Shown here piece after piece: positions 1,082-30,171 of a stretch of DNA of 64,000 bases. A program made the translations under genes and the position numbers. The notes beneath the pieces are model-generated. The model saw only the letters and a program-made list of their open reading frames with translations. It ran no database searches and was not told the origin of the DNA. The stretch's first letter is position 1, and each line of letters starts with the position of its first letter. The DNA comes from Thermodesulfobacteriota bacterium (GTDB lineage: Bacteria > Desulfobacterota > Binatia > Bin18): positions 1,632,001-1,696,000 of the forward strand of contig OZ219926.1 in the NCBI GenBank assembly GCA_964291405.2, in the 5' to 3' direction.

Positions 1082-1106
1082 ATTTCGTCTTCTCAGCTGT
1101 AACGTG

Positions 1107-1134
1107 GCGGCGGGCTCAACAGCCCGCCGTTTTT
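1107..1134 (+). terminator. Intrinsic terminator
   Basis: CGGCGGGCT-CAAC-AGCCCGCCG followed by TTTTT. Confidence 0.85.
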
Positions 1135-1318
1135 GCGCTTGACCCCTGCGCTGCTCGACCCCAATGGCAGGCGGACCGTCCACACTCCCCGGCTAGAAAG
1201 ATAAACGTACCCAGCACCTTCTGTCTGGTGGAGGACACGTTTACCCTTTACCTCATATCCAATACCTGACATTGTGGTCCGCATATCGACGCGTGCCAAA
1301 GCGTAACAGGAGGGACGT

Positions 1319-2089
1319 ATGCTTCAAGTTTTCTCTATGCCAGTGGGCTTTCTCGAATTCGACAGTCGGCTCTTCTTTCCGCAGGACGAGCAGGGAGAGC
1401 AGATCACTATTCCCGTACCGAGCTATTTGATCACGCACCCCAAAGGGAATGTAGTCTTTGACACCGGCGTACACTGCTCTTGCATAGACGACGCCAAGGG
1501 CCGTCTTGGCGATATTGCCGATGCGTTTGCCCCCCGCGCCAAACCGGGCGAGGAAATTGTCAGCCAGTTAGCGAAATTCAAGCTCACCCCGGATGATATC
1601 ACCTATGTGGCTAACTCGCACTTCCACTTCGATCATGCGGGTGGGAACGAGTTTTTTCCGCACTCGACCTTTCTCGTCCAGAAAAACGAGCTTGAGGCGT
1701 CAAAAGACCCGGCCCTCCGAGAAAAGGCGTTTTTTGACCCCCAGGACTACGATCACCCGCTCAACTATCAGCCCGTAAACGGTGAACTGGACATCTTTGA
1801 TGACGGTACGCTGGTACTTTTTCCAACTCATGGCCATACTCCAGGCCACCAGTCCATGCGTATTCGTATCACCAAAGGCACAGACATCGTGGTGACCGCG
1901 GATGCTTGTTACACCAAGCGCAATATGGATGAGAACATGTTGCCGTCGATTGCCTATGATACGGATGAGATGTATCGCTCGCTCGGTACGCTACGCGACC
2001 TGAGAGACAAACAAGGCGCAACGATTCTCTACGGCCACGACCCGGCCCAGTGGCAGCAGGTCAAACACGCCCCTGAGCCGCTGGCATAA
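1319..2089 (+). CDS. N-acyl-homoserine lactonase family metallo-beta-lactamase (AiiA/AttM-like)
   Basis: SHFHFDHAG (HxHxDH), GHTPGHQS, DACY and GHD motifs; SD AGGAGG. Confidence 0.85.
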   Translation: MLQVFSMPVGFLEFDSRLFFPQDEQGEQITIPVPSYLITHPKGNVVFDTGVHCSCIDDAKGRLGDIADAFAPRAKPGEEIVSQLAKFKLTPDDITYVANSHFHFDHAGGNEFFPHSTFLVQKNELEASKDPALREKAFFDPQDYDHPLNYQPVNGELDIFDDGTLVLFPTHGHTPGHQSMRIRITKGTDIVVTADACYTKRNMDENMLPSIAYDTDEMYRSLGTLRDLRDKQGATILYGHDPAQWQQVKHAPEPLA

Positions 2090-2097
2090 CCATCGAG

Positions 2098-2124
2098 AAC
2101 CGGGGCTCGGGTTTGAGCCCCGGT
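2098..2124. terminator. Hairpin between convergent genes
   Basis: ACCGGGGCTC-GGGTTT-GAGCCCCGGT inverted repeat. Confidence 0.6.
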
Positions 2125-2465
2125 CAGGACCAGGTTTTCCAGACCTCGGGGCAATGCCCGACCGTTGCTTCCTTGCCGTTGCGGACAACGGGCGTGCGCA
2201 TGAGAAGGGCGTCTTCAAGGAGCAGGGTTTCGATCCGGGCAGCGTTCAGCGAGGCGTGCGTCAGTCCTTTTTCAACAAAGCGCTTGCCGGCTGTATCGAT
2301 TAAATCCTTCAACGGGACACGCGCCGCCACCGAGCGCAGTTCGCCCTTAGACATTTCTTTTTGGCTGAGATCAATAAAATGAAAAGGAATGCGGCGCTCC
2401 TTGAAAAAGCGCTGGGCCTTACGGGTCTCAGAACATTTTTTCAGGCCAAAAATCTGAATATTCAT
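2124..2465 (-). CDS. ArsC/Spx/YffB-family thioredoxin-fold protein
   Basis: N-terminal IQIFGLKKCSETRKAQRFFK and C-terminal LMRTPVVRNGKEATVG; SD AAGGAG. Confidence 0.85.
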   Translation of the reverse strand: MNIQIFGLKKCSETRKAQRFFKERRIPFHFIDLSQKEMSKGELRSVAARVPLKDLIDTAGKRFVEKGLTHASLNAARIETLLLEDALLMRTPVVRNGKEATVGHCPEVWKTWS

Positions 2466-2588
2466 CGATTACTCCTTCTCCCGCGCCCACGGTCGGTAGA
2501 GGCCGGATCAGGCATTCTCCTTACTTGACAGAATCCTCAAATCACCCATAGGCTATACGCCCTCTTGTCCTACCAATCGGAGGGAGTT

Positions 2589-4709
2589 TTGTACAATAAG
2601 ACCTTTGTTCTTCTCTTTACCCTCTTCTTACTGGGGGAGTTTTTAGTCTTGCGCACCCAGGCACTCGCCCAGGAGCAGCAGTCGCCGGGATCCTCAGACA
2701 CGCCCAGTACCCAGACCCGGCCATTGAGCCCAACCGAGCTTGAGCCCATCGTCGTTACCGCGACCCGGAGCAATACCTCCCTGGCCGAGGTACCGGCAGC
2801 GGTGAGCGTCATTGACCGTTCAGATATCCAACTCGGGCTACCGACTGTCGGCTTTGAGGAGCCGCTCAGCCGTATCCCCGGCGTTTTTGCCCAGAACAGC
2901 GCGAATTTTGCCCAAGATTTCCGTCTCTCAATTCGTGGCTTTGGTACCCGGACCGCTTTTGGGGTGCGTGAGGTCAAGGTGCTGGTTGATGGCATCCCAG
3001 AGACCTCCCCGGACGGGCAAACCCAGCTTGATAATATCGATCTCGGGGCGGCCCAACGGATCGAGGTTTTGCGCGGGCCATCGTCTTCGCTGTACGGCAA
3101 TGCGTCCGGGGGCGTCATCAACATCATTACCGAGGACGGTCCAACCACACCGTTTCTTGAGACGCGCCTGATGGGAGGATCGTTTGGCCTCCAGAAATAT
3201 CAGGCAAAAACAGGGGGGCAGGCCGGCAAGCTGAATTATATGCTGAATGCCTCGTATCTGTCTCTGGGTGGTTTCCGGAATCATAGCCGCGCGCAAAATG
3301 TTTTGCTGACCGGCAAGCTGAAATACACGCTCAGCCCCACGTCCCATCTCACCACCCTGATGAGCTTTATGGACGCGCCCTTTGCCGACGACCCGGGCGG
3401 TATCACGCGGGCGCAGGTCGATGCGGACCGCGAGCAGGCCCGCGACCGGAATGTCCTGCTCGATTCGGGCGAACGGGTGACCCATGGCCGGCTCGGCTTT
3501 GTGTATCGCAACCAGTTTCTCCCAGGGCACGAACTCACAGTCACGCAGTACTCTGTATTCCGTCAGTTCGAGACCAAGCTACCCATCATTCCCCGCTTCG
3601 GTTCCGGTGTGGTCAAATTTGACCGCTTTGGGGTCGGTGGCAGCGTCAAGTACGCGCATGACGGTCGGTTCTTCGGGTTTCGGAATCGTTTTATGCTAGG
3701 CGTTGACGTCGAGTTGCAGGCCGATAATCGCCGCCGGTTTGATAATAACGAGGGGGATGTTGGTCAGCGCCGCTTCCACCAAGACGAAGACGTGCGCAGC
3801 GTCGGCCCGTTCCTGCACGACGTCTTCTATCTGCGCGACAATCTCCAGCTCAGTTTTGGGCTGCGCTACGACGATGTCCGTTTTTCGGTGAATGATCAGT
3901 TTCTCGAAGACGGCGACCAGTCCGGCGTGCAGACCTTCGATCACATCAGTCCCATGGGAGGCATTCTGTACAGCCCGCTTGAGAATCTGCACGTGTATGC
4001 CAATGTCTCCACCGCATTCCAGGTGCCGACCACGACCGAGTTGGCCCGGCCCGACGAAGGGGGAGGCTTCAATAACGACCTGAATCCGCAGCAAGCTCTG
4101 AATTACGAAATCGGGGCACGCGGCAATATCTGGAGCCGCCTCACGTATAATTTTGCCCTGTTCTGGATTGTCATCGATGACGAACTGGTGGCGTTTGAGA
4201 GCGAATCGGGCCGGAACTTCTTTCGCAACGCGGGCCGTTCTGAGCGGAAGGGGCTGGAACTCGCGTTTGATATCACCCTGATGGAAGGTCTCCGCTGGAC
4301 CCTGGCCTATAGTTTCCTCGATGCTGAATTTGACCGTTTTATTACCCCGAGCGGTCGCTTTGATAATAAAGACGAGCCCGGCATTCCCCCGCATCAACTC
4401 TTTACCGAACTCTTCTACGCTCATCCCTCCGGCTTCTACGGCGCGTTGAGCATTCAGCACGTGGATGACTTCTATGTGAATAACGCCAACTCGGCAGAGA
4501 ACGATGCGTACACCGTGCTGAATCTGCGCATGGGCTATGAAATGATGGTGGGGAACAGCCGTATCGCACCCTTTGTCGGTATCCGAAACATTGCCGACGA
4601 CGGCTATAACGGCCTCACCCGTCTGAACGCACTGGGCGGACGTTTCTTCGAGCCCTCAGCCGGTATCAACGCCTACGGTGGCGTGACTGTGAGCTACGAT
4701 TTCTTATAG
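2589..4709 (+). CDS. TonB-dependent receptor (YncD/FecA-like)
   Basis: Signal peptide, TonB box EPIVVTATR, plug motifs LSIRGFG and IEVLRGPSSSLYG, aromatic C-terminus. TTG2589 follows GGAGG (ORF track starts at 2565). TTGACA at 2525. Confidence 0.9.
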   Translation: MYNKTFVLLFTLFLLGEFLVLRTQALAQEQQSPGSSDTPSTQTRPLSPTELEPIVVTATRSNTSLAEVPAAVSVIDRSDIQLGLPTVGFEEPLSRIPGVFAQNSANFAQDFRLSIRGFGTRTAFGVREVKVLVDGIPETSPDGQTQLDNIDLGAAQRIEVLRGPSSSLYGNASGGVINIITEDGPTTPFLETRLMGGSFGLQKYQAKTGGQAGKLNYMLNASYLSLGGFRNHSRAQNVLLTGKLKYTLSPTSHLTTLMSFMDAPFADDPGGITRAQVDADREQARDRNVLLDSGERVTHGRLGFVYRNQFLPGHELTVTQYSVFRQFETKLPIIPRFGSGVVKFDRFGVGGSVKYAHDGRFFGFRNRFMLGVDVELQADNRRRFDNNEGDVGQRRFHQDEDVRSVGPFLHDVFYLRDNLQLSFGLRYDDVRFSVNDQFLEDGDQSGVQTFDHISPMGGILYSPLENLHVYANVSTAFQVPTTTELARPDEGGGFNNDLNPQQALNYEIGARGNIWSRLTYNFALFWIVIDDELVAFESESGRNFFRNAGRSERKGLELAFDITLMEGLRWTLAYSFLDAEFDRFITPSGRFDNKDEPGIPPHQLFTELFYAHPSGFYGALSIQHVDDFYVNNANSAENDAYTVLNLRMGYEMMVGNSRIAPFVGIRNIADDGYNGLTRLNALGGRFFEPSAGINAYGGVTVSYDFL

Positions 4710-4754
4710 ACCGCAGCGTATACAGACGGATCGAAAGCTTACGGGAGTTGGGAC

Positions 4755-4841
4755 ATGGATATTATCGTCTCCCTGGTTTTTCTGGCGTTTGTCGGCACGC
4801 TGATCTATTGCGCCCTTGATGCGCTACGCCGAACCAAGTAG
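4755..4841 (+). CDS. Putative 28-aa single-TM small protein (not in ORF track)
   Basis: GGGAG SD, then ATG; translates MDIIVSLVFLAFVGTLIYCALDALRRTK*. Confidence 0.5.
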   Translation: MDIIVSLVFLAFVGTLIYCALDALRRTK

Positions 4842-18732: not shown

Positions 18733-20805
18733 ATGGACATCAACTCTGATGCGGTGTCTCTCTACGCAATGATTCTCGGCGTGATCGGGCTCATCGTGGC
18801 GTTTATTATTTTCAAGTCCGTTTCCAGTCAGCCTAGCGGCAGTGACCGCATGCAGGAGATTGCCAGCTCTATCTATGAAGGGGCCATGGCTTTTCTCAGG
18901 CGTGAATATCGAATCCTGATCATCTTCGTGCTGGTCGTCTTCGGCCTGCTCGCCTGGCAGGTCGCGCTTGAGACCGGTATCGCCTTTCTGACCGGTGCGA
19001 TCTGTTCTGCGCTGGCCGGCTATCTCGGTATGCAGTCGGCCACCAAGGCGAACGTCCGCACCTCTGAGGCCGCCAGGGCAGAGGGCGAGGGAGCCGCGCT
19101 GCTGGTGGCCTTCAATGGCGGGGCGGTCATGGGCCTGTCGGTCGCCAGCCTCGGCCTGCTCGGGGTCGGCGCTTTTCTCAGCCTGTACTCTGACCCGGCA
19201 ACCTCAACATACATCAGTGGCTTTGCCATGGGCGCGAGTTCCATCGCTCTGTTTGCTCGGGTCGGGGGCGGTATTTATACCAAAGCCGCGGACGTCGGCA
19301 GCGACCTGGTCGGCAAGGTTGAGGCCGGTATCCCCGAAGATGACCCCCGTAATCCCGGTGTGATTGCCGATAATGTCGGGGATAATGTCGGCGATGTGGC
19401 TGGTATGGGCGCGGATATTTTCGAGTCCTATGTGGGTTCCATCATTGCCACGATTGCGATCGGCGCGACGGTCATCGTGGGAAGCGATGTCTGGAACAAA
19501 CTAGGCGACGCGGGGGTGGAAGAAGCCGTGTTGCGCAATGCCCTCATGGCCCTGCCACTCAGCATGGCTGTCGTCGGCCTGCTGGCCTCCTTTCTGGGCA
19601 TCTTCTCGATGAAGGCGCTCAAGAACGTCGGGCCGCAGAACGCGCTGCGCTATTCCGGGTTCATTGCCGCGGGTGTGTTCATTATTGCGGCGCTCGTTCT
19701 GGTGAATGTCCTTCCCGTGGCGACCGGTATTTTCTGGGCGGTGGCGTCGGGTTGCGTAGTCGGTGTCGGAATCGGCCTGATCACCGAGTACTACACCTCG
19801 GCCTCGCCCGTAGCCCGGGTGGCAGAAGCCAGCAAGACGGGCTATGCCACCAACATCATTCACGGCCTGGCGGTCGGTCTGGAAAGCTGCGCACTGCCCG
19901 TCCTGGCCATTTGCGCTGCTATTTTTATTGCCAACCACTTTGCCGGCCTGTACGGCATTGGGATTGCCGGCGTCGGCATGCTGGCGACCGTAGGCGTTAC
20001 CATGTCTGTCGACGCCTACGGCCCCGTGGCAGACAACGCGGGTGGTATTTCCGAGATGGCCGAACTCGGCCCGGACGTCCGCAAGATTACTGACGGCCTG
20101 GACGCCCTGGGTAATACCACTGCAGCAATGGGAAAAGGCTTTGCAATCGGCTCTGCCGCCCTGACTGCCCTGGCCCTGTTTTCCGCGTTCACCCAAGCTG
20201 TTGACCAGAATCGACTGGCGGCGGGAATGGACCCGCTGCTCATCGTGGTAACCGATCCGGTCGTGGTCATTGGTCTGCTTCTGGGCGGGATTCTGCCGTT
20301 CTTTATCGGAGCCCTGACCATGACCGCGGTGGGCCGGGCAGCCGGTCAGATGGTAGATGAAATCCGGCGGCAGTTCCGCGAAATTCCCGGCCTGCTCGAA
20401 GGCAAGGAAGGCGCTCGGCCGGACGCGGCCCGCTGCGTGGATATTTCAACCGCAGCCGCCCTCAAGGAAATGATTCTGCCCGGTCTGACCGCGGTGATCG
20501 CTCCGGTCGTGGTCGGTCTGGTTCTTGGCGCCGCGGCTCTGGGTGGCATGCTCGCCGGGGCAACTGTTACCGGCGTGTTGCTGGCCCTGTTTATGGCCAA
20601 CGCGGGCGGCGCCTGGGACAACGCCAAAAAATCGATCGAAAAGGGCGAGGTTGAGGGCGAGGCCAAAGGCTCGGAAGCCCACAAGGCCACCGTCGTGGGC
20701 GACACGGTCGGCGACCCGCTGAAAGACACCTCGGGCCCCTCGCTCAACATCCTGATCAAGCTGATGGCGGTCGTGGCCCTGGTGATTGCGCCGCTGCTGG
20801 TATAG
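18733..20805 (+). CDS. hppA: Membrane-integral pyrophosphatase, K+-dependent type (probably Na+-translocating)
   Basis: [29 protein letters not shown] and [14 protein letters not shown] motifs. GNTTAA (Ala rather than Lys) marks K+ dependence. SD GAGGAGG. Confidence 0.95.
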
Positions 20806-20829
20806 CCGTCGTTTTACCGTGCAGCATCT

Positions 20830-20860
20830 AAGGGCGGGTACCAGGTACCCGCCCTTTTTT
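20830..20860 (+). terminator. Intrinsic terminator after hppA
   Basis: AAGGGCGGGTACC-A-GGTACCCGCCCTT followed by more T's. Confidence 0.9.
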
Positions 20861-20886
20861 GTTTGGGGTGTTGGCGGGCAAACTTA

Positions 20887-20957
20887 TTGACAAAGCAAGC
20901 CAATCGTATAGTCTTGGCTTCCCTAGTTGAAATTGATATTCATTATCAACTAGGGAA
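20887..20957 (+). promoter_or_regulatory. Sigma70 promoter plus Fur box
   Basis: TTGACA (20887) N16 TAGTCT. GAAATTGATATTCATTATC (20929-47) matches GATAATGATAATCATTATC at 16/19 and is embedded in the IR TTCCCTAGTTGA...TCAACTAGGGAA. Confidence 0.85.
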
Positions 20958-21069
20958 AGAGACGGTAGAAATTGCGGCCAAGAAGGCCGCTAACCAATCG
21001 TTGAGGCCCGAGGTTCCCACACCCAGAGCCCGTAAGGACAGCAATCCTTGCGGGCTTTTTTTATGTCTC
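20921..21069 (+). ncRNA. Candidate Fur-regulated sRNA or attenuating leader, copy 1
   Basis: Ends in AGCCCGTAAGGA-CAGCAA-TCCTTGCGGGCT plus a T-tract, about 40 nt before exbB. Homologous to 30189-30285 (-). Confidence 0.55.
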
Positions 21070-21102
21070 AGAGTCATTCGTCCGGTGCGAGGTATTGGCC
21101 CC

Positions 21103-21786
21103 ATGTATGCTGAATTGACAAGATTTTTAAGTGTCGGCGGGCCGGTTATCGGCCTGCTTATTTGCCTGTCGGTGGGTGCCCTGACCGTCATTCTGATCAA
21201 GCTGTGGCAATGGCGGCGGCAGCGACCCTGGCCGCGTGACATCACGGAACAGGCCCTTGCGAATCTGGAATACGGTGAGCGGACTCTGGCCATCAACCTG
21301 TTACAGGGTCAGCGGAACTATCAGGCTCGACTCATCAGCCACACGCTGCAACTGCTCGAAACCGGCGCGCTCTCCATTGAGGAGCTCAAGGATGAATCCA
21401 GGCGATTGGCACGTTCGTTCGTCGCCAAGCTGGACAGTTACGTACGCATCCTGGAAGTAATCGCGTCGTTAGCCCCCCTGCTGGGATTATTTGGAACCGT
21501 CCTCGGCATGATTGACGCCTTTCAGGCCATGGAGGCCGCGGGCACACAGGTCAATCCGAGCGTCCTTTCGGGTGGTATCTGGAAGGCATTGCTCACAACC
21601 GCAGCCGGACTCGCCATCGCCATTCCGGTCTCAATGGCGAACAGTTGGTTTGAACGCAGGATTGAGGTTGAGGCAACCGCCATGCTGGACCGGCTGGAGC
21701 GTATTTTCACTCTTGAGGCGAAAAAGCGGGCCGAACACAGGGTCGAACATCTGCACGTGCAGCCCGGCTCCCGGCTGGCAGGATGA
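21103..21786 (+). CDS. exbB: MotA/TolQ/ExbB proton channel protein
   Basis: APLLGLFGTVLGMI and GIWKALLTTAAGLAIAIP; ATG21103 follows GAGG. Confidence 0.9.
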   Translation: MYAELTRFLSVGGPVIGLLICLSVGALTVILIKLWQWRRQRPWPRDITEQALANLEYGERTLAINLLQGQRNYQARLISHTLQLLETGALSIEELKDESRRLARSFVAKLDSYVRILEVIASLAPLLGLFGTVLGMIDAFQAMEAAGTQVNPSVLSGGIWKALLTTAAGLAIAIPVSMANSWFERRIEVEATAMLDRLERIFTLEAKKRAEHRVEHLHVQPGSRLAG

Positions 21787-22196
21787 ACGAGACGCCGCTG
21801 TATTATCCACGCCGCCAGCCCATCAGCCTTACCCCGCTGATCGATGTGGTGTTCATTTTGCTGATGTTCTTCATGTTGACGTCTACTTTTACGCGCTGGA
21901 AGGCGGTTGACCTGCGGTTGCCCGTCGCCAGTTCCGACGCCAGCCCGAAGAAACCCCAGGCGTTACTCCTGTATACGGATGGCTCGATCTCGTTGCGCGG
22001 ACGCCCGTTTCAGCTTTCGGACCCCGACGCGGAAGCGGCTCTCTCCGTCGCCCTTGATCCCGCTCGACCGGTCGTTGTGTTTCCCGAAGCCGACACCCGC
22101 GTGCAAACCATTATCTCCACCTTCGAGGGGCTCACCGCGGCAGGTGTTTCGGGCGCCGTTTTGGGAGTAGCCCTGGAACGGGAGGCAGAAGATTGA
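21783..22196 (+). CDS. exbD: Biopolymer transporter ExbD
   Basis: ISLTPLIDVVFILLMFFML with the conserved TM Asp. Confidence 0.9.
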   Translation: MNETPLYYPRRQPISLTPLIDVVFILLMFFMLTSTFTRWKAVDLRLPVASSDASPKKPQALLLYTDGSISLRGRPFQLSDPDAEAALSVALDPARPVVVFPEADTRVQTIISTFEGLTAAGVSGAVLGVALEREAED

Positions 22197-22639
22197 ATCC
22201 TCGTCGGGCCGACATCCTCCTCACACACGTCAATCTACGCCGAGGACGGAGCAGTGATATTGGCGTGATTCCGCTGATAAACATCGTCCTGCTGCTGCTG
22301 ATTTTCTTTTTGATTGCCGGCCAAATGGCCGACCGGCGGGACCAACAGGGCTTCCAACCTCCGACTTCCGTCAGCAACAAACCCATCCGCCACCAACCCA
22401 TTACGCTGTCGCTGAATACACGCCGACAGCCTGCCCTCAACGGAAAGGAGCTTTCGTTCGAGGCCCTCGGTTCGGCCCTGCAAGTCGCGCTGGCCGACGA
22501 CACCCAACAGGTGGCACTGAAAATAGACCGGGACGTAACGGCCGGCACGCTCGACAAGCTCCTGGATGTCATTCGCTCCCACAATGTCACGACGGTAATG
22601 CTGTACAGCGTGAATGCGGAGGACCGGAGCCAGCCATGA
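22193..22639 (+). CDS. exbD: Second ExbD (TM Asp replaced by Asn)
   Basis: IPLINIVLLLLIFFLIAG and LKIDRD; 4-nt overlaps with both neighbours. Confidence 0.85.
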   Translation: MNPRRADILLTHVNLRRGRSSDIGVIPLINIVLLLLIFFLIAGQMADRRDQQGFQPPTSVSNKPIRHQPITLSLNTRRQPALNGKELSFEALGSALQVALADDTQQVALKIDRDVTAGTLDKLLDVIRSHNVTTVMLYSVNAEDRSQP

Positions 22640-23511
22640 AATACCTGCACTGGGGTTTCGCGTTCGGGGCCGCGCTCGGAATTCATCTCGTGAGTGCGTA
22701 TGCATATTTCAATTGGGTCCCCCAACAGTCCCAACCGCGTGGGGCGATTGACTTGGGTGAAGGCGGGGTCGAGATCGGCCTGGGCCGGATTGGCTCGTAT
22801 GCAGACCTGACCGAGCGACCCGTAGTGCCGTCCGTATCCGACCAAGCCAAAACCAACGCCGCGCAGCAGGAAACAGATCCGGGGTCACAAAACGTCGAGG
22901 TCAAACCGTCTCCCCCTGCACAACCCCTGCCGGATATGAAGCCGGTAGAGGTTCCCGCTCCCGAGCCTCCGGTCGTCCCGGTCGAAAAACAGGCAGTGGT
23001 GGCTAAACGACCACCGGTCGAACCGTCAGAAACCCTCCCCCGTCCTCCCGAACCTGAGCAACCGATGCAGACAAAGCCGAGTCCCCAATATGAGGCTGCG
23101 TCCAGTCTACCGACCAGCCCTGACGTATCGACCCAAGCCGCGCCCAGCCCACGCTCATCCGTGGCGATGCGCGCGACTGGAAAACGGCAACGTCCGACTT
23201 TAGGCGGACGGGTCGGCAACCCAAAAGACTATTTCAGCTTGCTCATCGCTTGGCTAAACCAACACAAAGACTATCCCCCCGCGGTCAAGAAGAAAAAACA
23301 GCAGGGCACGGTAGTCTTGGCGTTTTCCATTGACCGCAGCGGCACCGTGCTCACCTCCCGCGTCCAAGAAAGTTCCGGCTATCCGTTATTGGATCAGGCT
23401 GCGCTCGACATGCTGGCCCGAGCCAACCCGCTGCCGGCCATGCCCGACTCCATGCCGCGCCAACGCCTGCGCCTGGCGGTGCCCATCGAATATTCGCTGG
23501 TAACGGAATAG
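22636..23511 (+). CDS. tonB: Energy transducer TonB
   Basis: TM segment with His (ALGIH), Pro-rich linker, and C-domain YP...QGTVVLAFSIDRSG...SSGYPLLDQAA. Confidence 0.92.
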   Translation: MKYLHWGFAFGAALGIHLVSAYAYFNWVPQQSQPRGAIDLGEGGVEIGLGRIGSYADLTERPVVPSVSDQAKTNAAQQETDPGSQNVEVKPSPPAQPLPDMKPVEVPAPEPPVVPVEKQAVVAKRPPVEPSETLPRPPEPEQPMQTKPSPQYEAASSLPTSPDVSTQAAPSPRSSVAMRATGKRQRPTLGGRVGNPKDYFSLLIAWLNQHKDYPPAVKKKKQQGTVVLAFSIDRSGTVLTSRVQESSGYPLLDQAALDMLARANPLPAMPDSMPRQRLRLAVPIEYSLVTE

Positions 23512-23534
23512 CGCCAGAATAACGGACGCGGCGC

Positions 23535-24134
23535 ATGAACGTGGACACACGCAATTTGAATCCCCCTCCGCCACGCAGACACTTGGTTGTCACCTGTCTC
23601 GTGGCTGTTGCGTTAGCGCTGAATGTTGTCCTTGTGATGTTGGCTCCCCCGGTCTCAGCCCAAGAAGCTCAGGCCACGATCACCCTGGACGTCCTCCACA
23701 TTCAGGGCCGCGTCATTGGAGAGCCCGACTGCATCACGTTTCGACACAGTCGAGCTCGTGACAGCTTCTGTGTCAGCCTTCACACACCTGACTACCGACC
23801 AAGGAGACGGTCCGGTCAACAACCCGAAGCAAAGGCTGCGCGCCCAGGCGACTACCCAAGCCAGCTTCTGGCACGGCTGAGCCAATACAAAAACTATCTG
23901 CCAGCACTGCGAAAAAAGCGGCAACAGGGCACCGTGGTGTTGGCGTTCTGCATTGACCGCAGCGGCTCAGTGCTCGCCTCCCATGTCCGAGAAAGTTCGG
24001 ACCATCCGCTGCTGGACCAAACCGCACTTGACCTGTTGGTCAAAGCCAGTCCACTACCGGCCATGCCGGATTCCACAACGCACGAGCGCCTGCATTTCGT
24101 GCTGCCAGTCAAGTTCTCCCTGACCACACGATGA
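23535..24134 (+). CDS. Chimeric TonB C-terminal-domain protein with receptor-like N-terminus
   Basis: The C-terminal ~94 aa align with the upstream TonB C-domain. The N-terminus aligns with the signal peptide/TonB-box region of the downstream receptor. Confidence 0.7.
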   Translation: MNVDTRNLNPPPPRRHLVVTCLVAVALALNVVLVMLAPPVSAQEAQATITLDVLHIQGRVIGEPDCITFRHSRARDSFCVSLHTPDYRPRRRSGQQPEAKAARPGDYPSQLLARLSQYKNYLPALRKKRQQGTVVLAFCIDRSGSVLASHVRESSDHPLLDQTALDLLVKASPLPAMPDSTTHERLHFVLPVKFSLTTR

Positions 24135-24163
24135 CAAATGTCCACACACGGAAGGAGCAAAGC

Positions 24164-25567
24164 ATGAAGCACAAGAAAAAGAGAGCAGGAAAGGTGAAGA
24201 AACCGCTGGAACCGTGCCGGTCCGCCACCTCTACTATGACCAATAATGCGGTCGCCCTGAGCATTTCCGCAGTGATGTTGGGTGGCACGGCCCTGGCCCA
24301 GGAGGCCCAGGACGAAGAGGAGGCCGTCTTGCTGGACAAAGTCCAGATTCAGGACCGTACAATCGATACCAACCCCTATGCCGAGTCCGGCGTGCCGTAT
24401 AAGGCCCGCGTCTCGGGTGACCTGCGCCGCCTGGAGGAACTGGCCGACACGCCCCAGACCATGACCGTACTGACCCAGACCCAGATCGAAGATTCAGGCA
24501 AATCCGATTTGCGTGAGATATTATCCGCTCAGCCCGGTATCACCTTGGGAACGGGTGAGGGCGGCAACGCCTTTGGCGACCGTTATATCATTCGTGGTCA
24601 CGAAGCCCGTAGCGACGTGTTCGTAGACGGCATGCGCGACCCCGGCATGACCATCCGCGAGAGCTTCGCTCTGGAACAGGTCGAAATCACCAAAGGTCCC
24701 AGCTCGACCTTTGCCGGTCGCGGCTCGACGGGTGGGGCCATCAACGGCATCACCAAACAGGCCAGCAGCGAATACGATTTCGTCAAGTTTCAAGGCGGCC
24801 TGGGTACCGACGAGTATTACCGGGTGCATCTGGACGCCAATAAACGTTTCACCGATGAACTGGCCGTACGGGCCAACCTGCTGTACGCCAACGAGGAAGT
24901 GCCGGACCGGGCACCCGCAGAACGTTTGCGCCGCGGCGCGGCGGTGTCCGGCAGATACGACCCCACGGACAATAAGTTCTACCTGTCCTTTGATTATTAT
25001 TTTCTTGATGCGGAGGACGACCCTGACCTCGGGACCCAGATTGAACAGTTCGGCAACCCCTTTGATGATATTCCGGTCTATCTGCAAAAGGACCGCGATT
25101 TTCTCAAGTCGGAGGTGCATACTTTTACGTTTCGGGGCGGCTATGAATTCAACGATAATTTCCGGCTGGAAAGCGTCACCCGCTATGGATTCACCGACAA
25201 CGGCTACGTGCTGACCGGAACCAGCGCCTTCTGGAAGCTGACCGGCACGGATCAAGTGGCGTGGCGGTTGAGCCAAAAAGACGGCTGGCAGGAGGTGGAC
25301 TATGTTGCCACCCAACTCAATGCCTTTCTGGACACTGGTCTGAGTTTTACCCAGCACGGTCTACTCTTGGGTGTGGAGTACTCGGAACATAATGTGCTCA
25401 ACGGACGCTATAATGTCGACCCCAGAGGCACACCCAATTGCGATGTCGAGGGGGTCTGGCGCGGCACGCTGTACAGCCGCCCCGGCAGTTATTGCATGTA
25501 CGATAACAGCGGCAATCTGACCGCCAACCTGAACAGCTTCATGGACCTCGCCATCAGCCGGGGCGAC
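24164..25567 (+). pseudogene. 3'-truncated Fiu/PiuA-like TonB-dependent siderophore receptor
   Basis: PGITLGTGEGGNAFGDRYIIRG and QVEITKGPSSTFAGRGSTGGAIN motifs. Receptor-like sequence stops at ISRGD; the ORF then runs antisense through hmuU to 26509. Confidence 0.85.
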
Positions 25568-26500
25568 AACGGTGCGAGCCAGCGTGTCGGCCACCAGCAG
25601 CAGGGTCGCACCCAGCAGAGCGGAGGCCGGAATCAACAGGCGGTGGTCCGGCCCGATGGTGAGGCGGATCATATGCGGTACGACCAGGCCCACGAAGCCG
25701 ATGATCCCGCTCGTTGCTACCGCAGCGCCGACCGCAAGGGCGACACAGATGGTCACGTTGCGTTTCAGCTGTTCACTATTGATACCGAGATAGCGCGCTT
25801 CATCCTCGCCGAGCAGCAGGATATTCAGTTTTTGGGCATTCCGAATCAGCAGCAGCGTTGCCGGCAGGACGAGCGTGGTGGCCACACTGAGTGTGGGCCA
25901 GAGGGCCGCGCCGAGGCTACCCATGGTCCAGAACGTCAAGGCGCGCAACTGGGTATCGTCGCTCAGATAGGTCAGGAAGCCGGTTCCGGCTCCGCTCAGC
26001 GCGTTGATGGCAATACCGGCCAGCAGCATATAGGTGACGGAAAAGGTTTCCATCTGTCGGGCCAGCCGAAAAATCAGCAGACAGGCCAGCAGCCCGCCGA
26101 TAAAGGCGGCGATACTCAGCCCGTACAAGCCCAGCGTACCCGTCAGAGGTCCGGCCCAGACGATCATGACCGCAACGGCCAGGGCCGCGCCGCTGGCAAT
26201 GCCGATCAGGCCGGGGTCGGCCAGAGGGTTGCGGAACAAGCCCTGCAAGGCCGCACCGGAAACGGCCAGGGCCGCGCCGACAACGCTGGCCAGCAGCACA
26301 CGCGGCAGCCGGATGGAGAAGAGGACGGCTTCCTGCTGCGTATTCAGGCTGCCGTCGAACAGCGCAACGACCGGCACGGACACCGCACCGATGCATGCAG
26401 CCGTAAGGGCAGTCAGGACGAATACCCCGCCCAGCAGCACCAACACGATCGCCCGAAGCCGCAGGAAGGGCAATACCACTGGTTTCGCTGCCCCGCTCAC
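25554..26500 (-). pseudogene. hmuU: 3'-truncated heme ABC transporter permease (FecCD family)
   Basis: IRLPR, LQGLFRNPLADPGLIG and IGFVGLVVPH motifs. After ADTLARTVVAPA the expected last TM (ELP.G..TA..GAPFF) is missing, and the ORF reads on to 25361 antisense to the receptor. Confidence 0.85.
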
Positions 26501-27348
26501 AAGCCCTGATACGCCTCGTGCAGTGTGGCCGCAGCTTGCACGGTACGCGGGCCAAACCCCAGCAACAGCAGGGCATCCATGACGATCAGGCTGCCGGTCC
26601 TGGCGGCCGGCGTGAGGGACAGCCCTGGAGCGGTCAGCAGGGCGTCCTTGCCGCCGGCCTGCGCAAGCCCCCGGGCCGTGGTGAGAATCACGTCCGGCTG
26701 CAGGGCGGCCGCGGCCTCCGGCGTAAGGGGCTTGTAGCCGGCATAGCCGGAGACGGCGTTCCGGGCACCCGAGAGTCTGATGATGCTGTCCGCGGCAGTC
26801 TCTCGGCCGGCCGCCATCGGCGCGCCGCCGCCATGCTGGAGAATGAAAAGTACCCGTTTGTCAGTCGGGTGCCCGGCCGTGACTTTTGCCAACTCGGCAG
26901 TCTGATGGTCAATGGCATCAGTCAGGGCGCTACCCGCTCGTTCTTTTTTCAGGGCGCTGGCAATCACCCGGATGGCGTCCCGTACATCCGCCAGCGAACG
27001 GCCGGCCCTCAGACTCAGGATCGGAATATTGGCCGCCTGCAACTGTGCCAGCACGGCCGGCGGTCCAGCTTCTTCGGTCAGAATCACGAGGTCGGGATAC
27101 AGCGAGACAATCCCCTCCGCGGACAGGGTGCGCTGATAACCGACCTTAGGCAGGCGTTCGGCTTCCGGCGGATAATAACTGGTGGTGTCGTTACCGACCA
27201 GCATCTCCTGCGCTTCCAGCGCATAGACGATTTCCGTCAGGGCTCCGCCAATGGTGACAACGCGGCGCGGCGCCTCGGCAAGGGCCGGCAACGCAAAAAA
27301 GATCAACCCCCAGGCCAGAATGAGACGCCGAACGGAGTCCGCTACCAT
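26497..27348 (-). CDS. hmuT: Heme ABC transporter periplasmic binding protein
   Basis: RVVTIGGALTEIVYAL, VGYQRTLSAEG (Tyr heme ligand) and LLGFGPR. Confidence 0.9.
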   Translation of the reverse strand: MVADSVRRLILAWGLIFFALPALAEAPRRVVTIGGALTEIVYALEAQEMLVGNDTTSYYPPEAERLPKVGYQRTLSAEGIVSLYPDLVILTEEAGPPAVLAQLQAANIPILSLRAGRSLADVRDAIRVIASALKKERAGSALTDAIDHQTAELAKVTAGHPTDKRVLFILQHGGGAPMAAGRETAADSIIRLSGARNAVSGYAGYKPLTPEAAAALQPDVILTTARGLAQAGGKDALLTAPGLSLTPAARTGSLIVMDALLLLGFGPRTVQAAATLHEAYQGL

Positions 27349-29558
27349 TGGTACGACACCCGCGTGACAAAACTGCGGCCTTCTTCCAGCAAACTGGCGA
27401 AGCGTTTGGTGTATGCCTTATCCGCGATATTCTCGATTCCGAAGTCCACAGTCACCGCTCCCGATCCTTGGCCGGTCGGCGTCCAGTGCTGATGCGGGGT
27501 CCAGCGGAAGTAGAGGTCGTGCACGCCATAGCCGTCGGTCGGCACGTCGTTGTCGCCCACACGGTCATTTCTCTCGGCAAACCGGCCACGCCAGCCGATC
27601 ACGCCGTTGAGCGCGTCTATCCGAAACTCGACCCCTGCAACAATCGTCAGCGGCACATTGTTGAGCAGATATTCACCGGTATCGTCGTTCTTCGCCTTGA
27701 CGTAGGACAGCCCCAGTCGGGCGGTGACCAGTTCCAGTTCGTAGCGGCCCTCCGCTTCCCAGCCCATCAGGTCGGCGTCCGGGATGTTCAGGATTTTTGT
27801 CGTTCCGGCCCGGACATCGACTTCTGGGGTAATGAAGTCGTCTCCCTCGCTGGTGAACCATGACCCTTTCACGGTCACGCGGTCGTTCGCCGCCAGGACA
27901 CTCTCGAAGTTCAGCCCCGCCCCCACCTCGATTGTAGTGACGGTTTCCGGCTTCAAATCCGGATTCGGCACGAAGCGGTTGTCCGGGGCAAAAGCGGTGG
28001 GGGCGAGCACTGGGCTGCCATCGGGTCTGAGCACCGGCACCTGCACCGGACGGCCATCAGGGCCGATTACCGGGCGACCGTCCGGGCCGATTTCCGGTCT
28101 GGTCAACGGCCCGAACTCAAACGGAAACCCGCCCGGAAAATGCAGGCCAGCCGGATACAGCTCTGTCAGATTGGGAGCTCGGAACGCTTGAGCCCAGCTC
28201 CCGAACAGCATGAGGTTCTCAATCGGCTTGTAGCTCAGCGACACTTTTGGCGACACTTCGTGTTCGTTCTGCGAGTTCCCGATTTCGTCGTCGCTCTCGT
28301 AATGGTCGAAGCGCAGGGCCGGAATGAACAGCACCTCACCGATAGGGGTGTGGAGGGCGACTTCATCCTGGAGATAAAAGCCCAGCGTCAGGGCCTCGGC
28401 ATCCGGTACGCCGCTCCGCTTTCCGTCCGGGGTGGCCGAACTCTTGCCGACTTGGTCGTTCGTGTAGATTTCAAGTCCGTACGAAAACGTGTGTCCGTGC
28501 ATACCGCTCACCGCCCAGCGGGTCTGATTATCGATGGTAAAGCCGAGCGTCTCCATCTCCCGCGTCTGCACCCGACCGACGCGCCGACCGGTCACGTCTT
28601 CTTCCTCCACTTCGGTGTCGTTGTAATACAGGTGAAGTTTCGGACTCAGCCAGCGATTGGCCGGATTATCGAAGGCGTAGCGCAGGCTGAACTGGTTGTC
28701 CTGCACTTCCTTATTCACAATGATGTTGGACAGCGCCGAGCTGGCACTGGCACCGTTATTGGGCTCCTGCCCGTCGTTATTGAACACCTGCGCCTGAAAC
28801 TTGAGCGTGTGGAAGTCCTTCAGGGTATAGCCGGCTTTGAACAGGCCGGACAGCAGGCGATCGTCCGTATCCAGCTCGTTGCCGTTGCCCTGTTCTATAT
28901 CACCCGAATCGCGTAAGGAGAAATTGGCCAGGAGATCCCAGCCACGGTAACGGCCAAACCCCGTCAGGGTCGGGGCATATTCAGCGCTCGCGTTGCGATA
29001 GCCGAAAGAGGCCAGGGCACCCACGCTCTGGCCTGGAGCCAGCAGGTCCGCAGCGTCCTTTGTTTCAAAGGCCACCACGCCACCAATGCCGCCTCCCCCA
29101 TATATGGCCGAGGACGCTCCTTTGACCACTTCGATCGACTTCAGCAGCGAGGGATCAACATAGAAACGGCCGTCATGCCCGGACTCGAAATTCTGGCGGC
29201 GACCATCCATGAGCGTGATGATCGCCTCATCGTCAAAACCGCGGATGGAGATCGTCTGTCCGTTCCGCCGCGGGCCGTTATCCACTTCTACACCTGGGGT
29301 GAATTCCAGCAGGTCCGCCACGTCACCGGCCAGGGCGTTGCCTGGAGCATCCGTCTCCACCTGAGAGATAAGTGCCGGGACATCAAACGTCGGTTGCGGG
29401 CTGCGGGTGGCGTAAGAGGATATCGTGATCTTATCCAGCAATGTGGGTGGTTCCTCGTCTTGCGCATGCACCACGAGGCCAGCGCTTGTCCACAGAAAAC
29501 AGACAGCAACGAGTGCTATCGCTCCCTTGGCGATCAGTCTTGGGCGTTGAACTGCCAC
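27342..29558 (-). CDS. hmuR: TonB-dependent heme/hemoglobin receptor
   Basis: Plug SGHDGR His, FRAP...HF...NPDL motifs and C-terminal SYQW. Confidence 0.9.
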   Translation of the reverse strand: MAVQRPRLIAKGAIALVAVCFLWTSAGLVVHAQDEEPPTLLDKITISSYATRSPQPTFDVPALISQVETDAPGNALAGDVADLLEFTPGVEVDNGPRRNGQTISIRGFDDEAIITLMDGRRQNFESGHDGRFYVDPSLLKSIEVVKGASSAIYGGGGIGGVVAFETKDAADLLAPGQSVGALASFGYRNASAEYAPTLTGFGRYRGWDLLANFSLRDSGDIEQGNGNELDTDDRLLSGLFKAGYTLKDFHTLKFQAQVFNNDGQEPNNGASASSALSNIIVNKEVQDNQFSLRYAFDNPANRWLSPKLHLYYNDTEVEEEDVTGRRVGRVQTREMETLGFTIDNQTRWAVSGMHGHTFSYGLEIYTNDQVGKSSATPDGKRSGVPDAEALTLGFYLQDEVALHTPIGEVLFIPALRFDHYESDDEIGNSQNEHEVSPKVSLSYKPIENLMLFGSWAQAFRAPNLTELYPAGLHFPGGFPFEFGPLTRPEIGPDGRPVIGPDGRPVQVPVLRPDGSPVLAPTAFAPDNRFVPNPDLKPETVTTIEVGAGLNFESVLAANDRVTVKGSWFTSEGDDFITPEVDVRAGTTKILNIPDADLMGWEAEGRYELELVTARLGLSYVKAKNDDTGEYLLNNVPLTIVAGVEFRIDALNGVIGWRGRFAERNDRVGDNDVPTDGYGVHDLYFRWTPHQHWTPTGQGSGAVTVDFGIENIADKAYTKRFASLLEEGRSFVTRVSYQW

Positions 29559-29631
29559 GTCTTATCTCCTTACCCGGTTTCGCGCCTCAAATAGGCGATA
29601 CTCTTTAGTCCGTCACGAACCAGCCTGCCCC

Positions 29632-30171
29632 CTACACGACAAAGGCCAGAATCAGGCAAACGGCCAGACCGACGACACCGGTGGCGATGGTTCTGGCCCG
29701 CAGCCCCGCGCTGGACAGCCCCAGCCACAATCCGCTGAAGACAATAAACAATACGCCAACCGCCAGAACTTTCTGAAAATCCTTGAACCACAACGGACCG
29801 TGTCCCTTGTGGAGTTCGATCAGACGCTTTTGCAGGTCCGGGACGTTACGCTTCACGGTTACAGGGTCATCGGCGACCGAAATCTCATAGTGAGTCCGCG
29901 AGGTCGGACGGGTATACAGCGTATTCCCGCTCTTCTTCACGTATTCAAAGTCATGCGTGATACCGATATCGTGCAGCAGGGCCCGCACGTCGGCCTCAAG
30001 AGAAGCGGAAGCCGGATTAACGACAACACCGGAGGGCACGGTCACCGGGGTGCTGGTCACGGTACCCTTGATGCCAACGAGATAGAGTCCCCCGGAAATG
30101 GCGACGAACAACAGGGCCAGCACAAAAAACGCCGCCGCGTACAGATGCAGACTGATCCAAAAGTTACGCAT
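29632..30171 (-). CDS. PepSY-associated TM helix (iron-regulated) membrane protein
   Basis: LHLY in TM1, LIELHKGHG and SGLWL motifs; first gene of the heme operon. Confidence 0.7.
   Translation of the reverse strand: MRNFWISLHLYAAAFFVLALLFVAISGGLYLVGIKGTVTSTPVTVPSGVVVNPASASLEADVRALLHDIGITHDFEYVKKSGNTLYTRPTSRTHYEISVADDPVTVKRNVPDLQKRLIELHKGHGPLWFKDFQKVLAVGVLFIVFSGLWLGLSSAGLRARTIATGVVGLAVCLILAFVV

What the first reader, a model, noticed from the sequence alone, without database searches (positions are those of the whole stretch)
23535..24134. Chimeric protein: receptor signal peptide + TonB box fused to a TonB C-terminal domain
Seen: the N-terminal AVALALNVVLVMLAPPVSAQEAQATITLDVLHIQGRVI aligns with the downstream receptor's AVALSISAVMLGGTALAQEAQDEEEAVLLDKVQIQDRTI, including the A-x-A/QEAQ cleavage site and TonB-box-like strand. 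The C-terminus (DYPSQLL...QQGTVVLAFCIDRSG...LLDQTALD...PLPAMPDS) is a diverged copy of the upstream TonB C-domain, with YP changed to YL and SSG to SSD. It lacks the TM His and Pro-rich linker. The ORF remains intact despite substantial divergence. Known: TonB C-domains bind receptor TonB boxes by beta-strand pairing. Inference: a soluble periplasmic protein carrying both ligand and binding domain could be a self-complemented decoy, adaptor or inhibitor of TonB coupling, or it may be a rearrangement relic.
Basis: partly seen in the sequence, partly recalled or inferred. Interest (0 to 1): 0.7.

Follow-up and report, generated by a model that had tools for sequence, protein, structure and literature searches.

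The report
Secreted TonB-box–TonB-domain fusion gene
A small gene made long ago by a tandem duplication joins an outer-membrane receptor's export signal and TonB-docking strand to a copy of the TonB docking domain; it has been kept by selection in a few uncultured Binatia bacteria and probably makes a free periplasmic helper or brake of nutrient-uptake energy coupling.

Summary
ORF 23535-24134 (199 aa) has an N-terminus homologous to the downstream TonB-dependent receptor, from the start codon through the signal peptide and A-x-A/QEAQ site to the TonB-box strand. Its C-terminus is 58% identical to the C-domain of the upstream TonB. The two similarities are colinear at an offset of about 623-638 bp, which is the signature of a tandem duplication across the tonB/receptor boundary. 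Relatives with tonB directly next to the same receptor show the unduplicated state.

It is not a relic. Six full-length homologues (66-74% identical) and a 53%-identical one in another family all lie between tonB and the receptor. dN/dS is 0.25-0.37. The junction segment, a Cys/His hairpin motif, is the most constrained part (dN/dS 0.014-0.10 in 5 of 6 pairs). Among 1.84 billion representatives, only its own cluster shows the architecture.

The function is inferred: an exported, soluble accessory of TonB-receptor coupling, either a self-capped adaptor or a brake. In-silico support is weak. It is not essential, because orthologous receptor loci exist without it.

In this assembly the partner receptor is cut by a 4.9-kb deletion. 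That deletion is either very recent or an assembly artefact.

The parts
23535..24134 (+). Chimeric gene (199 aa + stop): signal peptide, TonB-box strand, Cys/His hairpin, basic linker, TonB C-domain
   Evidence: ORF. Homologues. dN/dS 0.25-0.37.
23535..23660 (+). Residues 1-42: probable Sec signal peptide ending VSA|QE, homologous to the receptor's
   Evidence: Small residues at -3/-1 in 7 of 8 members. dN/dS 0.26-1.5. Cleavage itself is not tested.
23661..23720 (+). Residues 43-62: TonB-box-like strand (L51, L54, Q57 invariant), homologous to the receptor's LDK-V-Q-I-Q strand
   Evidence: Modelled as a strand with pLDDT 78.
23721..23789 (+). Residues 63-85: junction segment with C66, H71, C79, H83; the most conserved block of the family, with no detectable parent
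   Evidence: 18 invariant columns within residues 62-85. dN/dS 0.014-0.10 in 5 of 6 pairs. No source found.
23790..23846 (+). Residues 86-104: basic, poorly conserved linker
   Evidence: dN/dS 0.17-1.28.
23847..24131 (+). Residues 105-199: TonB C-terminal domain
   Evidence: Pfam PF03544 and TIGR01352. 58% identical to the neighbouring TonB. Model pLDDT 83-96. Best structural match is the HasB C-domain.
23206..23726 (+). Copy 1 of the ancient duplication unit (tonB 3' end, stop, spacer, start, signal peptide, TonB box)
23829..24373 (+). Copy 2 of the duplication unit (chimera 3' end, stop, spacer, receptor start, signal peptide, TonB box)
22636..23511 (+). TonB (291 aa) with anchor His, Pro-rich spacer and C-domain; parent of the chimera's C-terminus
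20863..22639 (+). exbB, exbD, exbD upstream in the same direction
   Evidence: Pfam. Same order in G002, L021 and G025.
24164..25566 (+). Fiu-like TonB-dependent receptor, parent of the chimera's N-terminus; in this assembly cut after about residue 470
25554..25566 (.). 13-bp overlap at the junction of a ~4.9-kb deletion relative to G002

Best explanation
The ORF is a real, selectively maintained gene. It was born when about 0.6 kb spanning the 3' end of tonB and the 5' end of the adjacent Fiu-like receptor gene was duplicated in tandem.

The junction gene inherited several parts. From the receptor it took the ribosome site, start codon, cleavable signal peptide and TonB-box strand. From TonB it took the C-terminal domain. 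A 23-residue Cys/His segment then became fixed at the joint.

The product is most likely exported and released into the periplasm. There it would act as an accessory of TonB-receptor coupling for the co-operonic receptor, through the beta-strand pairing that TonB C-domains use.

My preferred version, held at about 0.3 on its own, is strand exchange:
1. At rest, its own N-terminal strand caps its C-domain.
2. A receptor TonB box displaces that strand.
3. The freed strand, on a tether of about 45 residues, is offered to TonB.

A pure competitive brake is nearly as likely.

Shown: the origin, the domain identities, the conservation, the purifying selection and the operon position. Inferred: export and cleavage, every binding step, and the direction of the effect.
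For: Origin:
- Colinear similarities at offsets of 623 and 638 bp.
- Homology running from the start codon to the TonB box (25/63 identical, E 9e-11; probability 93%).
- The chimera's ribosome site in G025 resembles the receptor's.
- The unduplicated order exbD-tonB-receptor is present in G053 and G047.

A real gene:
- 6 full-length homologues at 66-74% identity, plus G025 at 53%.
- In all 4 loci with DNA in hand it lies between tonB and the receptor, in the operon exbB-exbD-exbD-tonB-X-receptor-FMN dehydrogenase-PiuC.
- dN/dS is 0.25-0.37 over 6 pairs, 0.15-0.29 for the C-domain, and 0.014-0.10 for the Cys segment in 5 of 6 pairs, with dS of 0.8-2.1 there.
- Contigs of three studies carry it (X1 record 5 and X2 record 14 with 0 differences; X3 record 17). 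One of these may be the window's own source.

Not a TonB-type anchor: there is no His in the hydrophobic core, no Pro-rich spacer, and the N-terminus evolves fast.

Strand docking:
- An AlphaFold2 model of the mature protein (88-row alignment, mean pLDDT 78.7) makes residues 46-51 and 55-57 strands, with block pLDDT 78. The following segment scores 47-54.
- Complex prediction of the TonB C-domain with chimera residues 43-104 gave weak support: score 0.38 against a best control of 0.00. That mark was reached by 58 of 80 solved complexes and 2 of 110 mismatched pairs. At 0.60 or under, only 7 of those 80 reached it, as did both mismatches that passed. The runs agree in at least 1% of contacts, and the partner's pLDDT is at least 36. 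A like complex is solved, so the pass may come from memory.

Literature, passages read:
- An over-produced periplasmic TonB domain, TonB-box peptides and a receptor N-terminal domain each inhibit uptake (PMC9841981).
- TolB, a periplasmic protein, is gripped by TolA through an N-terminal strand in the same way as a TonB box (PMC7066135).
Against: - No signal-peptide predictor, proteome or RNA evidence was available.
- The tool gives no coordinates, so I infer rather than see that the modelled N-terminal strand lies on the C-domain.
- The complex score is weak, and one of its three runs gave 0.01.
- The gene is dispensable for the receptor as such. Of 6 genomes in the order (56 searched) that carry the receptor orthologue, 3 lack the gene: G047, G053 and G016.
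- This genome's copy carries private changes at hallmark TonB_C positions (P122L, G156D, Y157H), has a weaker ribosome site than its homologues, and has a partner receptor that is truncated in the assembly.
- The role of the most conserved element, the Cys/His segment, is not explained by the strand-exchange model.
Confidence: 0.5

Rival explanations
1. Pure decoy or brake. The soluble C-domain occupies receptor TonB boxes, and its own TonB box may occupy TonB. This lowers or gates energy coupling, for example to limit futile cycles or entry of TonB-dependent toxins and phages. No force is transmitted.
For: Each half is inhibitory when over-produced alone in model bacteria (passages in PMC9841981). 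The gene is dispensable for the receptor. The C-domain is under selection.
Against: It is co-transcribed directly upstream of the receptor it would inhibit. The conserved N-terminal strand and Cys/His segment would not be needed for a simple decoy.
Confidence: 0.22
2. Inner-membrane-anchored short TonB paralogue. The N-terminal hydrophobic stretch is not cleaved, and the protein is a second, dedicated energy transducer like HasB or FusB.
For: In this genome's copy the hydrophobic stretch is long, about 22 residues from L17 to L38. The best structural match of the C-domain is HasB (2m2k, E 1.8e-4, 37% identity).
Against: The stretch is homologous to a receptor's cleavable signal peptide, and 7 of 8 members keep the A-x-A-type site. 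In 6 of 8 members it is interrupted by D or R, leaving 15-18 hydrophobic residues. There is no His in the core and no Pro-rich spacer. The N-terminus has dN/dS of 0.26-1.5, whereas a TonB anchor must fit ExbB/ExbD.
Confidence: 0.12
3. Ligand- or metal-handling periplasmic protein. The Cys/His segment (C-x4-H-x7-C-x3-H) binds a metal or the imported substrate, and the TonB C-domain only docks it under the receptor.
For: The segment is the most constrained part: C66, C79 and H83 are invariant, and H71 is kept in 7 of 8 members with D in the eighth. dN/dS is 0.014-0.10 in 5 of 6 pairs. The operon encodes an iron-type receptor and a PiuC-like Fe(II) dioxygenase.
Against: No family or structural match exists for the segment. 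Its model confidence is low. A periplasmic Cys pair is at least as likely to form a disulfide.
Confidence: 0.08
4. Functionless rearrangement relic, at least in this genome.
For: In the assembly the partner receptor and four neighbouring genes are deleted. This copy has private changes at YP and SSG and a weak ribosome site.
Against: At family level dN/dS is 0.25-0.37 with intact frames in all 8 members. This copy's count of private changes (5) lies within the range of the others (0-6). Its branch is no longer than G002's (0.14 against 0.15). The deletion may be an artefact, or very recent.
Confidence: 0.08

Closest known systems
TonB energy transducers (Pfam TonB_C PF03544 / TIGR01352), including the neighbouring TonB
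   Same: The C-terminal domain. It is 58% identical to the neighbour, with the same fold in the model.
   Different: No ExbB/ExbD-coupled anchor with a core His and no Pro-rich spacer. Instead it has a receptor-type signal peptide, a TonB-box strand and a Cys/His segment.
Dedicated TonB paralogues next to their receptor (HasB, FusB)
   Same: A TonB C-domain protein encoded beside one receptor. The HasB C-domain is the best structural match.
   Different: By their published descriptions those are membrane-anchored transducers (abstracts listed). This one lacks that anchor type and carries a TonB box itself.
TolB of the Tol-Pal system
   Same: A periplasmic protein whose N-terminal strand, just behind the signal peptide, is gripped by the TolA C-domain through parallel strand augmentation, as for a TonB box (PMC7066135, passages). 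This is the nearest functional analogy for a soluble link pulled by a motor arm.
   Different: No sequence or fold relation to TolB's body. Here the body is itself a TonB C-domain.
Engineered periplasmic TonB fragments and TonB-box peptides
   Same: A soluble TonB C-domain, or a TonB box, in the periplasm competes with normal coupling (PMC9841981, passages citing Howard et al. 2001 and Tuckman & Osburne 1992).
   Different: Those are laboratory constructs carrying one element each. This is a natural gene under selection that carries both.
Uncharacterised secreted TonB_C-repeat proteins (P0010, five domains; P0013, two domains)
   Same: A signal-peptide-like N-terminus followed by TonB_C domains, with no TonB anchor.
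   Different: Those have no TonB-box strand and no Cys/His segment, and only their C-domains match. I found no paper on them, though I did not search for them specifically.

Membership tests
TonB family (energy transducer) | C-terminal TonB_C domain | tested here: met
   PF03544 at 47 bits (cut-off 24.6) and TIGR01352 at 56.4 bits (cut-off 27.1). Structural matches to TonB and HasB C-domains.
TonB family (energy transducer) | N-terminal uncleaved anchor with a conserved His in the membrane helix that couples to ExbB/ExbD (feature recalled from the literature) | tested here: not met
   No His within L17-L38. H16 sits at the border and is followed by Pro in 6 of 8 members. The region is homologous to a receptor signal peptide and evolves fast. 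59 of the 64 rows of the TonB alignment used as the comparison are database matches; in that alignment the anchor His is nearly invariant (H17).
TonB family (energy transducer) | Pro-rich periplasmic spacer | tested here: not met
   Residues 63-104 hold 5 Pro in 42 and no Pro-X repeats. The neighbouring TonB has a long Pro-rich stretch (read).
TonB family (energy transducer) | YP and SSG motifs of the C-domain | tested here: inconclusive
   Kept in the 7 other members. Changed to YL and SSDH in this genome's copy.
TonB-dependent receptor | Signal peptide followed by a TonB box near the mature N-terminus | tested here: met
   Homologous to the receptor's own N-terminus. Function of the strand is not tested.
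TonB-dependent receptor | Plug domain and 22-strand barrel | tested here: not met
   No Plug or barrel match in Pfam. The protein has only 199 aa.
Sec-exported soluble periplasmic protein | Cleavable signal peptide (n-region, h-region, small residues at -3/-1) | not testable with these tools
   There is no signal-peptide predictor here. By eye it has a basic n-region, a hydrophobic core and VSA|QE. 7 of 8 members fit the -3/-1 rule (P0002 has T at -1). There is no lipobox and no conserved twin-Arg.
TolB-like motor-gripped periplasmic adaptor (works-like only) | N-terminal strand bound by the motor arm's C-domain | tested here: inconclusive
   Complex prediction gave weak support: 0.38 against a best control of 0.00, with one of three runs at 0.01.

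The most novel reading that the evidence does not exclude
The protein is a soluble, load-bearing link of the Ton system, a 'TonB-box extender'. Its C-domain holds the receptor's TonB box while its own, longer-tethered TonB box is pulled by TonB, possibly in head-to-tail chains. It is kept closed by cis strand capping until a receptor signals occupancy. That would be the first free periplasmic force-relay in TonB-dependent transport. It would be analogous to TolB in Tol-Pal and would have arisen in one step by a tandem duplication across a gene boundary.
Probability: 0.2. Interest if true: 0.8.

Novelty: new variant of a known kind. Interest (0 to 1): 0.55.

Why it matters
It is a clean, datable example of gene birth. 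A tandem duplication across two adjacent genes gave, in one step, an exported protein that carries both the ligand (TonB box) and the binding domain (TonB C-domain) of a well-studied protein-protein interface. A new, strongly constrained Cys/His segment then arose at the joint.

For the Ton field it offers a natural test object for three questions:
- Can strand-augmentation contacts be chained or self-capped?
- Do cells use soluble TonB domains to tune coupling?
- How do paralogous C-domains stay compatible? One lineage shows gene conversion with the neighbouring tonB.

Its reach is narrow. It is known only from a handful of uncultured Binatia genomes and metagenome contigs, and nothing about its function has been measured.

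Tried and rejected
- The exact-seed repeat search over 22600-24700 found only three short chance families and missed the duplication, which is too diverged.
- Source of the Cys/His segment. blastn and tblastn of residues 56-105 (nt 23700-23850) against 20001-23690 and 23861-30000 gave nothing below E 0.04. A BLASTP hint to a Cys-Cys loop of the G025 receptor (residues 418-465, E 0.1) was not recovered by the profile comparison, and the Cys spacing differs. I treat it as chance.
- A language-model look-alike search for residues 43-104 gave no usable hit.
- The marginal G060 hit (E 0.006, one stop) lies antisense inside an unrelated 492-aa ORF, so it is chance.
- Short database hits to the C-domain (P0036, P0048 and others) are Pro-rich TonB fragments. 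The hits whose alignment reached far into the query (P0051, P0091, P0074, P0068, P0037) are ordinary anchored TonBs without the motif.
- The first AlphaFold2 run (8 rows) scored pLDDT under 50 for residues 1-100.
- Relaxed selection in this copy is not demonstrable.
- The missing 4.8 kb is not elsewhere in the assembly. There is only one 240-nt match at 78%.
- No RNA holder was listed for the stretch.
- Run X4 gave no cover over 23538-24073 at 90% likeness.
- Literature. Searches listed no paper on a secreted TonB-box/TonB_C protein. I saw listings and abstract starts only, plus passages of PMC12204202, PMC7066135 and PMC9841981. I did not ask for supplements, so the supplementary architecture tables of PMC12204202 could bear on this.
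Full report
WHAT IS THERE. The window carries, on the + strand, exbB (20863-21786), two exbD genes (21783-22196 and 22193-22639), tonB (22636-23511, 291 aa), the ORF in question (23535-24134, 199 aa) and a TonB-dependent receptor. The receptor's likely start is ATG 24164, 7 nt behind GGAAGGAG. Pfam and NCBIfam see only a TonB C-terminal domain in the ORF, at residues 119-196.

CHECK OF THE OBSERVATION. Residues 99-199 are 59/101 identical to the last 101 residues of the neighbouring TonB, without gaps (E 4e-40). Residues 18-61 are 17/47 identical to the receptor's signal peptide and TonB-box strand (E 4e-5). In genome G025 the same pair of genes gives 25/63 identities, ungapped from the first residue (E 9e-11). 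A profile-profile comparison of the two families aligns chimera residues 5-64 with receptor residues 8-70 (probability 93%, E 2.4e-7) and stops there. So the resemblance is homology, not generic signal-peptide likeness.

ORIGIN. The two similarities are colinear in the DNA, with offsets of 623 bp for the C-domain and 638 bp for the N-terminus. The stop codon, spacer and start codon lie between them in both copies. This is what a tandem duplication of the segment [tonB 3' end - spacer - receptor 5' end] leaves behind: tonB, then a junction gene made of the receptor's head and TonB's tail, then the receptor.

- In G025 the chimera's ribosome site and start (GAAAGGAGCAAAGCGTG) still resemble the receptor's.
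- The unduplicated order exists in relatives. In G053, tonB ends 25 nt before the orthologous receptor (82% identical). G047 has the same order. In G016 tonB is followed directly by a broken copy of the receptor.
- Synonymous divergence between the chimera's C-domain and the neighbouring TonB's is saturated in three genomes (dS 1.56, 1.66, 1.16). The event is therefore old.

A REAL GENE.
- A word-indexed search of 5.8 billion proteins found 9 proteins at E ≤ 0.001 among 500 candidates. These were the protein itself, six full-length homologues of 196-202 aa (66-74% identical), and two proteins that match only the C-domain.
- A full HMMER pass over 1.84 billion representatives found 7,683 proteins at E ≤ 0.001. 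Among the best 150, only the protein's own cluster matches full-length with the N-terminal module. The five other hits whose alignment reached furthest into the query are ordinary anchored, Pro-rich TonBs.
- Among 41 related genomes, only G002 (72% over residues 1-199) and G025 (53% over 25-197, another family of the same order) match beyond the C-domain.
- With residues 43-104 as the query, 3 of the 56 genomes held for the order match: G000, G002 and G025. There was also one chance hit.
- Pattern scans with the Cys/His motif found 2 loci in one-genome-per-species contigs of 185,579 species. Both are titled uncultured Candidatus Binatia MAGs and are the contigs of G002 and G025. The JGI metagenomes gave 1 locus (L021).
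- In all four loci with DNA in hand the gene lies between tonB and the receptor. In the three intact ones the operon continues with an FMN-dependent dehydrogenase and a PiuC/YbiX-type Fe(II) dioxygenase.
- Contigs from three studies carry the gene, and two of them match the window without a difference. One of these runs may be the window's own source.

SELECTION. Nei-Gojobori dN/dS over the six pairs of four genes is 0.25-0.37. That is like the neighbouring tonB (0.27-0.30) and above the receptor (0.07-0.17). By region:

| Region | dN/dS |
|---|---|
| Signal peptide | 0.26-1.5 |
| TonB-box strand | 0.11-0.52 |
| Cys/His segment | 0.014-0.10 in 5 of 6 pairs (0.39 in the closest pair, where dS is only 0.21) |
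| Linker | 0.17-1.28 |
| C-domain | 0.15-0.29 |

The alignment of 8 members has 18 invariant columns within residues 62-85, around the pattern G-x-x-D-C-x-T-F-R-x-S-R-x-R-D-S-F-C-x-S-L-H-x-P. In the Cys/His segment the synonymous sites are saturated while the protein is almost frozen. The constraint is therefore on the peptide, not on the DNA.

CONCERTED EVOLUTION AND LOSS.
- In a tree of C-domains, the seven chimeras of the window's genus-level group form one clade (100/100). The G025 chimera instead sits with G025's own TonB (90/90).
- Forcing all eight chimeras together costs 9.1 log-likelihood units (AU p = 0.028). I named that group after seeing the tree, although it is the natural one.
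- In G025 the paralogues differ by dS of only 0.51, and their last 50 codons by dN of 0.08.
- All chimeras share the Cys/His segment, which indicates one origin. The simplest reading is gene conversion from tonB in the G025 lineage.
- Of the 6 genomes in the order that carry the receptor orthologue, 3 have the gene. Recombination between the repeats would remove exactly the junction gene, so repeated loss is plausible. Transfer of the locus is not excluded.
- The receptor evidently works without the gene in some lineages, so the gene is an accessory.

STRUCTURE PREDICTIONS.
- With the 8-row alignment the model was poor (mean pLDDT 52.8; residues 1-100 under 50). It drew a hairpin at 66-70/77-81.
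- With 88 rows and the mature sequence (43-199) the mean pLDDT was 78.7. The C-domain scored 83-96. The first ten residues scored 78 and formed strands at residues 46-51 and 55-57, while the Cys/His region scored 47-54.
- An isolated six-residue strand needs a partner. The edge strand of the C-domain, which takes TonB boxes in solved complexes, is the obvious one. The tool returns no coordinates, so this is an inference.
- Foldseek matched the model to TonB-type C-domains, with HasB best (E 1.8e-4, 37% identity).
- The one complex job paired the TonB C-domain (185-291) with chimera residues 43-104. It gave weak support: median score 0.38 (runs 0.38, 0.42, 0.01) against a best control of 0.00. 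That mark was reached by 58 of 80 solved complexes and 2 of 110 mismatched pairs. At 0.60 or under, only 7 of those 80 reached it, as did both mismatches that passed. Contact agreement was at least 1% and the partner's pLDDT at least 36. Because TonB/TonB-box complexes are solved, a pass may reflect likeness only.

HOW IT MOST LIKELY WORKS.
- Shown: a receptor-type N-terminus, a TonB-box-like strand 4-15 residues behind the predicted cleavage site, a constrained Cys/His segment, a 19-residue basic linker and a TonB C-domain. The gene is co-oriented with, and 23 nt and 29 nt from, tonB and the receptor.
- Inferred: the protein is exported and cleaved, because its leader derives from an outer-membrane protein's leader and 7 of 8 members keep small residues at -3/-1. 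It is then a soluble periplasmic protein.
- From established knowledge, TonB C-domains bind TonB boxes by parallel strand pairing. Soluble TonB domains, TonB-box peptides and receptor N-domains each interfere with uptake when over-produced (PMC9841981, passages). TolA pulls the periplasmic protein TolB by the same kind of N-terminal strand (PMC7066135, passages).
- I therefore read the protein as an accessory of TonB-receptor coupling for its neighbour receptor (0.5). Within that reading I prefer a self-capped strand-exchange adaptor (about 0.3) over a plain brake (about 0.2).
- The Cys/His segment is the part selection guards most, and this model does not explain it. It may be a disulfide-stapled hairpin that makes a third contact, or a metal site.

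THIS GENOME'S COPY.
- Compared with G002, the window lacks about 4.9 kb (L013 7734-12601), and the junction has a 13-bp overlap (window 25554-25566). The missing stretch holds the receptor's 3' half, the dehydrogenase, the dioxygenase, a methyltransferase, an ABC ATPase and the 3' end of the FecCD permease gene. It is not elsewhere in the assembly.
- In the best-holding run the contigs end at 25566 and start at 25554, and no listed piece bridges the junction.
- A contig of another study that is nearly identical (2 differences in 1,079 nt) runs on beyond 25566 into the intact receptor. Loose ends before 25554 continue the intact permease.
- The truncation is therefore either very recent or an assembly artefact.
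- This copy has five private changes at otherwise invariant columns, including P122L, G156D and Y157H in the YP and SSG motifs. The count is within the range of the other members (0-6), and its branch is no longer than its sister's. Decay of this copy is possible but not shown.

COMPARISON WITH WHAT IS KNOWN. The protein belongs to the TonB_C superfamily but fails two defining features of TonB proteins, the anchor with a core His and the Pro-rich spacer. It has a receptor's head but no plug or barrel. The nearest functional analogies are TolB (a motor-gripped periplasmic protein) and laboratory periplasmic TonB fragments. Secreted proteins made of two or five TonB_C domains exist in the databases (P0013, P0010) but lack the TonB box and the Cys/His segment. 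My five literature searches listed no description of this architecture. I saw no supplements.

VERDICT. The origin by tandem duplication is well supported. The function is inferred with moderate-to-low confidence. This is a new variant of a known kind. Interest 0.55.

Noticed in passing
window 25554-25566 (and 24164-26500): Relative to G002, about 4.9 kb is missing. The convergent receptor and FecCD permease genes are both truncated and joined at a 13-bp overlap, which creates a spurious 792-aa ORF (24131-26509). Public contigs break exactly at the junction, and near-identical contigs from other studies carry the intact receptor. It is either a recent deletion or an assembly error.
   Followed up: partly
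L004/L014 (G025), chimera and tonB C-domains: The chimera's C-domain is homogenised with the neighbouring tonB (paralogue dS 0.51, against 1.2-1.7 in the other genomes). This looks like gene conversion between the duplicated segments.
   Followed up: partly
L028 (G016) 1027-4166, minus strand: The orthologous receptor is in two frames, and its C-terminal part runs into FMN-dehydrogenase-like sequence. It appears to be a broken locus directly downstream of tonB, with no chimera.
   Followed up: no
L024 (G047) 3632-4774, minus strand: The tonB frame reads through its usual end (…VEY then unrelated residues) into the receptor gene. This is a possible 3' frameshift or sequencing error.
   Followed up: no
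P0010 (560 aa) and P0013 (233 aa), database proteins: Proteins with a signal-peptide-like N-terminus followed by five or two tandem TonB_C domains and no TonB anchor. They look like an uncharacterised class of secreted TonB-domain proteins.
   Followed up: no
window 26497-29558, minus strand: A heme-type uptake cluster lies convergent to the Ton operon: a TonB-dependent heme/hemoglobin receptor (its G002 orthologue scores 442 bits against TIGR01785) and a periplasmic binding protein. The G002 cluster also has the FecCD permease and an ABC ATPase, which are cut or missing here.
   Followed up: partly
L005, L006 (G006, G004): The same exbD-exbD-tonB cluster is followed by a convergent methyltransferase gene, with neither chimera nor receptor. 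In the laid run X1, depth is about 32-34 over the chimera/receptor stretch and 38-110 over tonB. A loose end right after the tonB stop suggests co-occurring strains of this second type.
   Followed up: partly
window 20863-21786: The listed exbB ORF (307 aa, TTG start) is probably too long. The G002 and L021 orthologues are 230-233 aa, so the real start is likely the internal ATG (MYAELTRF…), leaving a longer upstream non-coding stretch.
   Followed up: no
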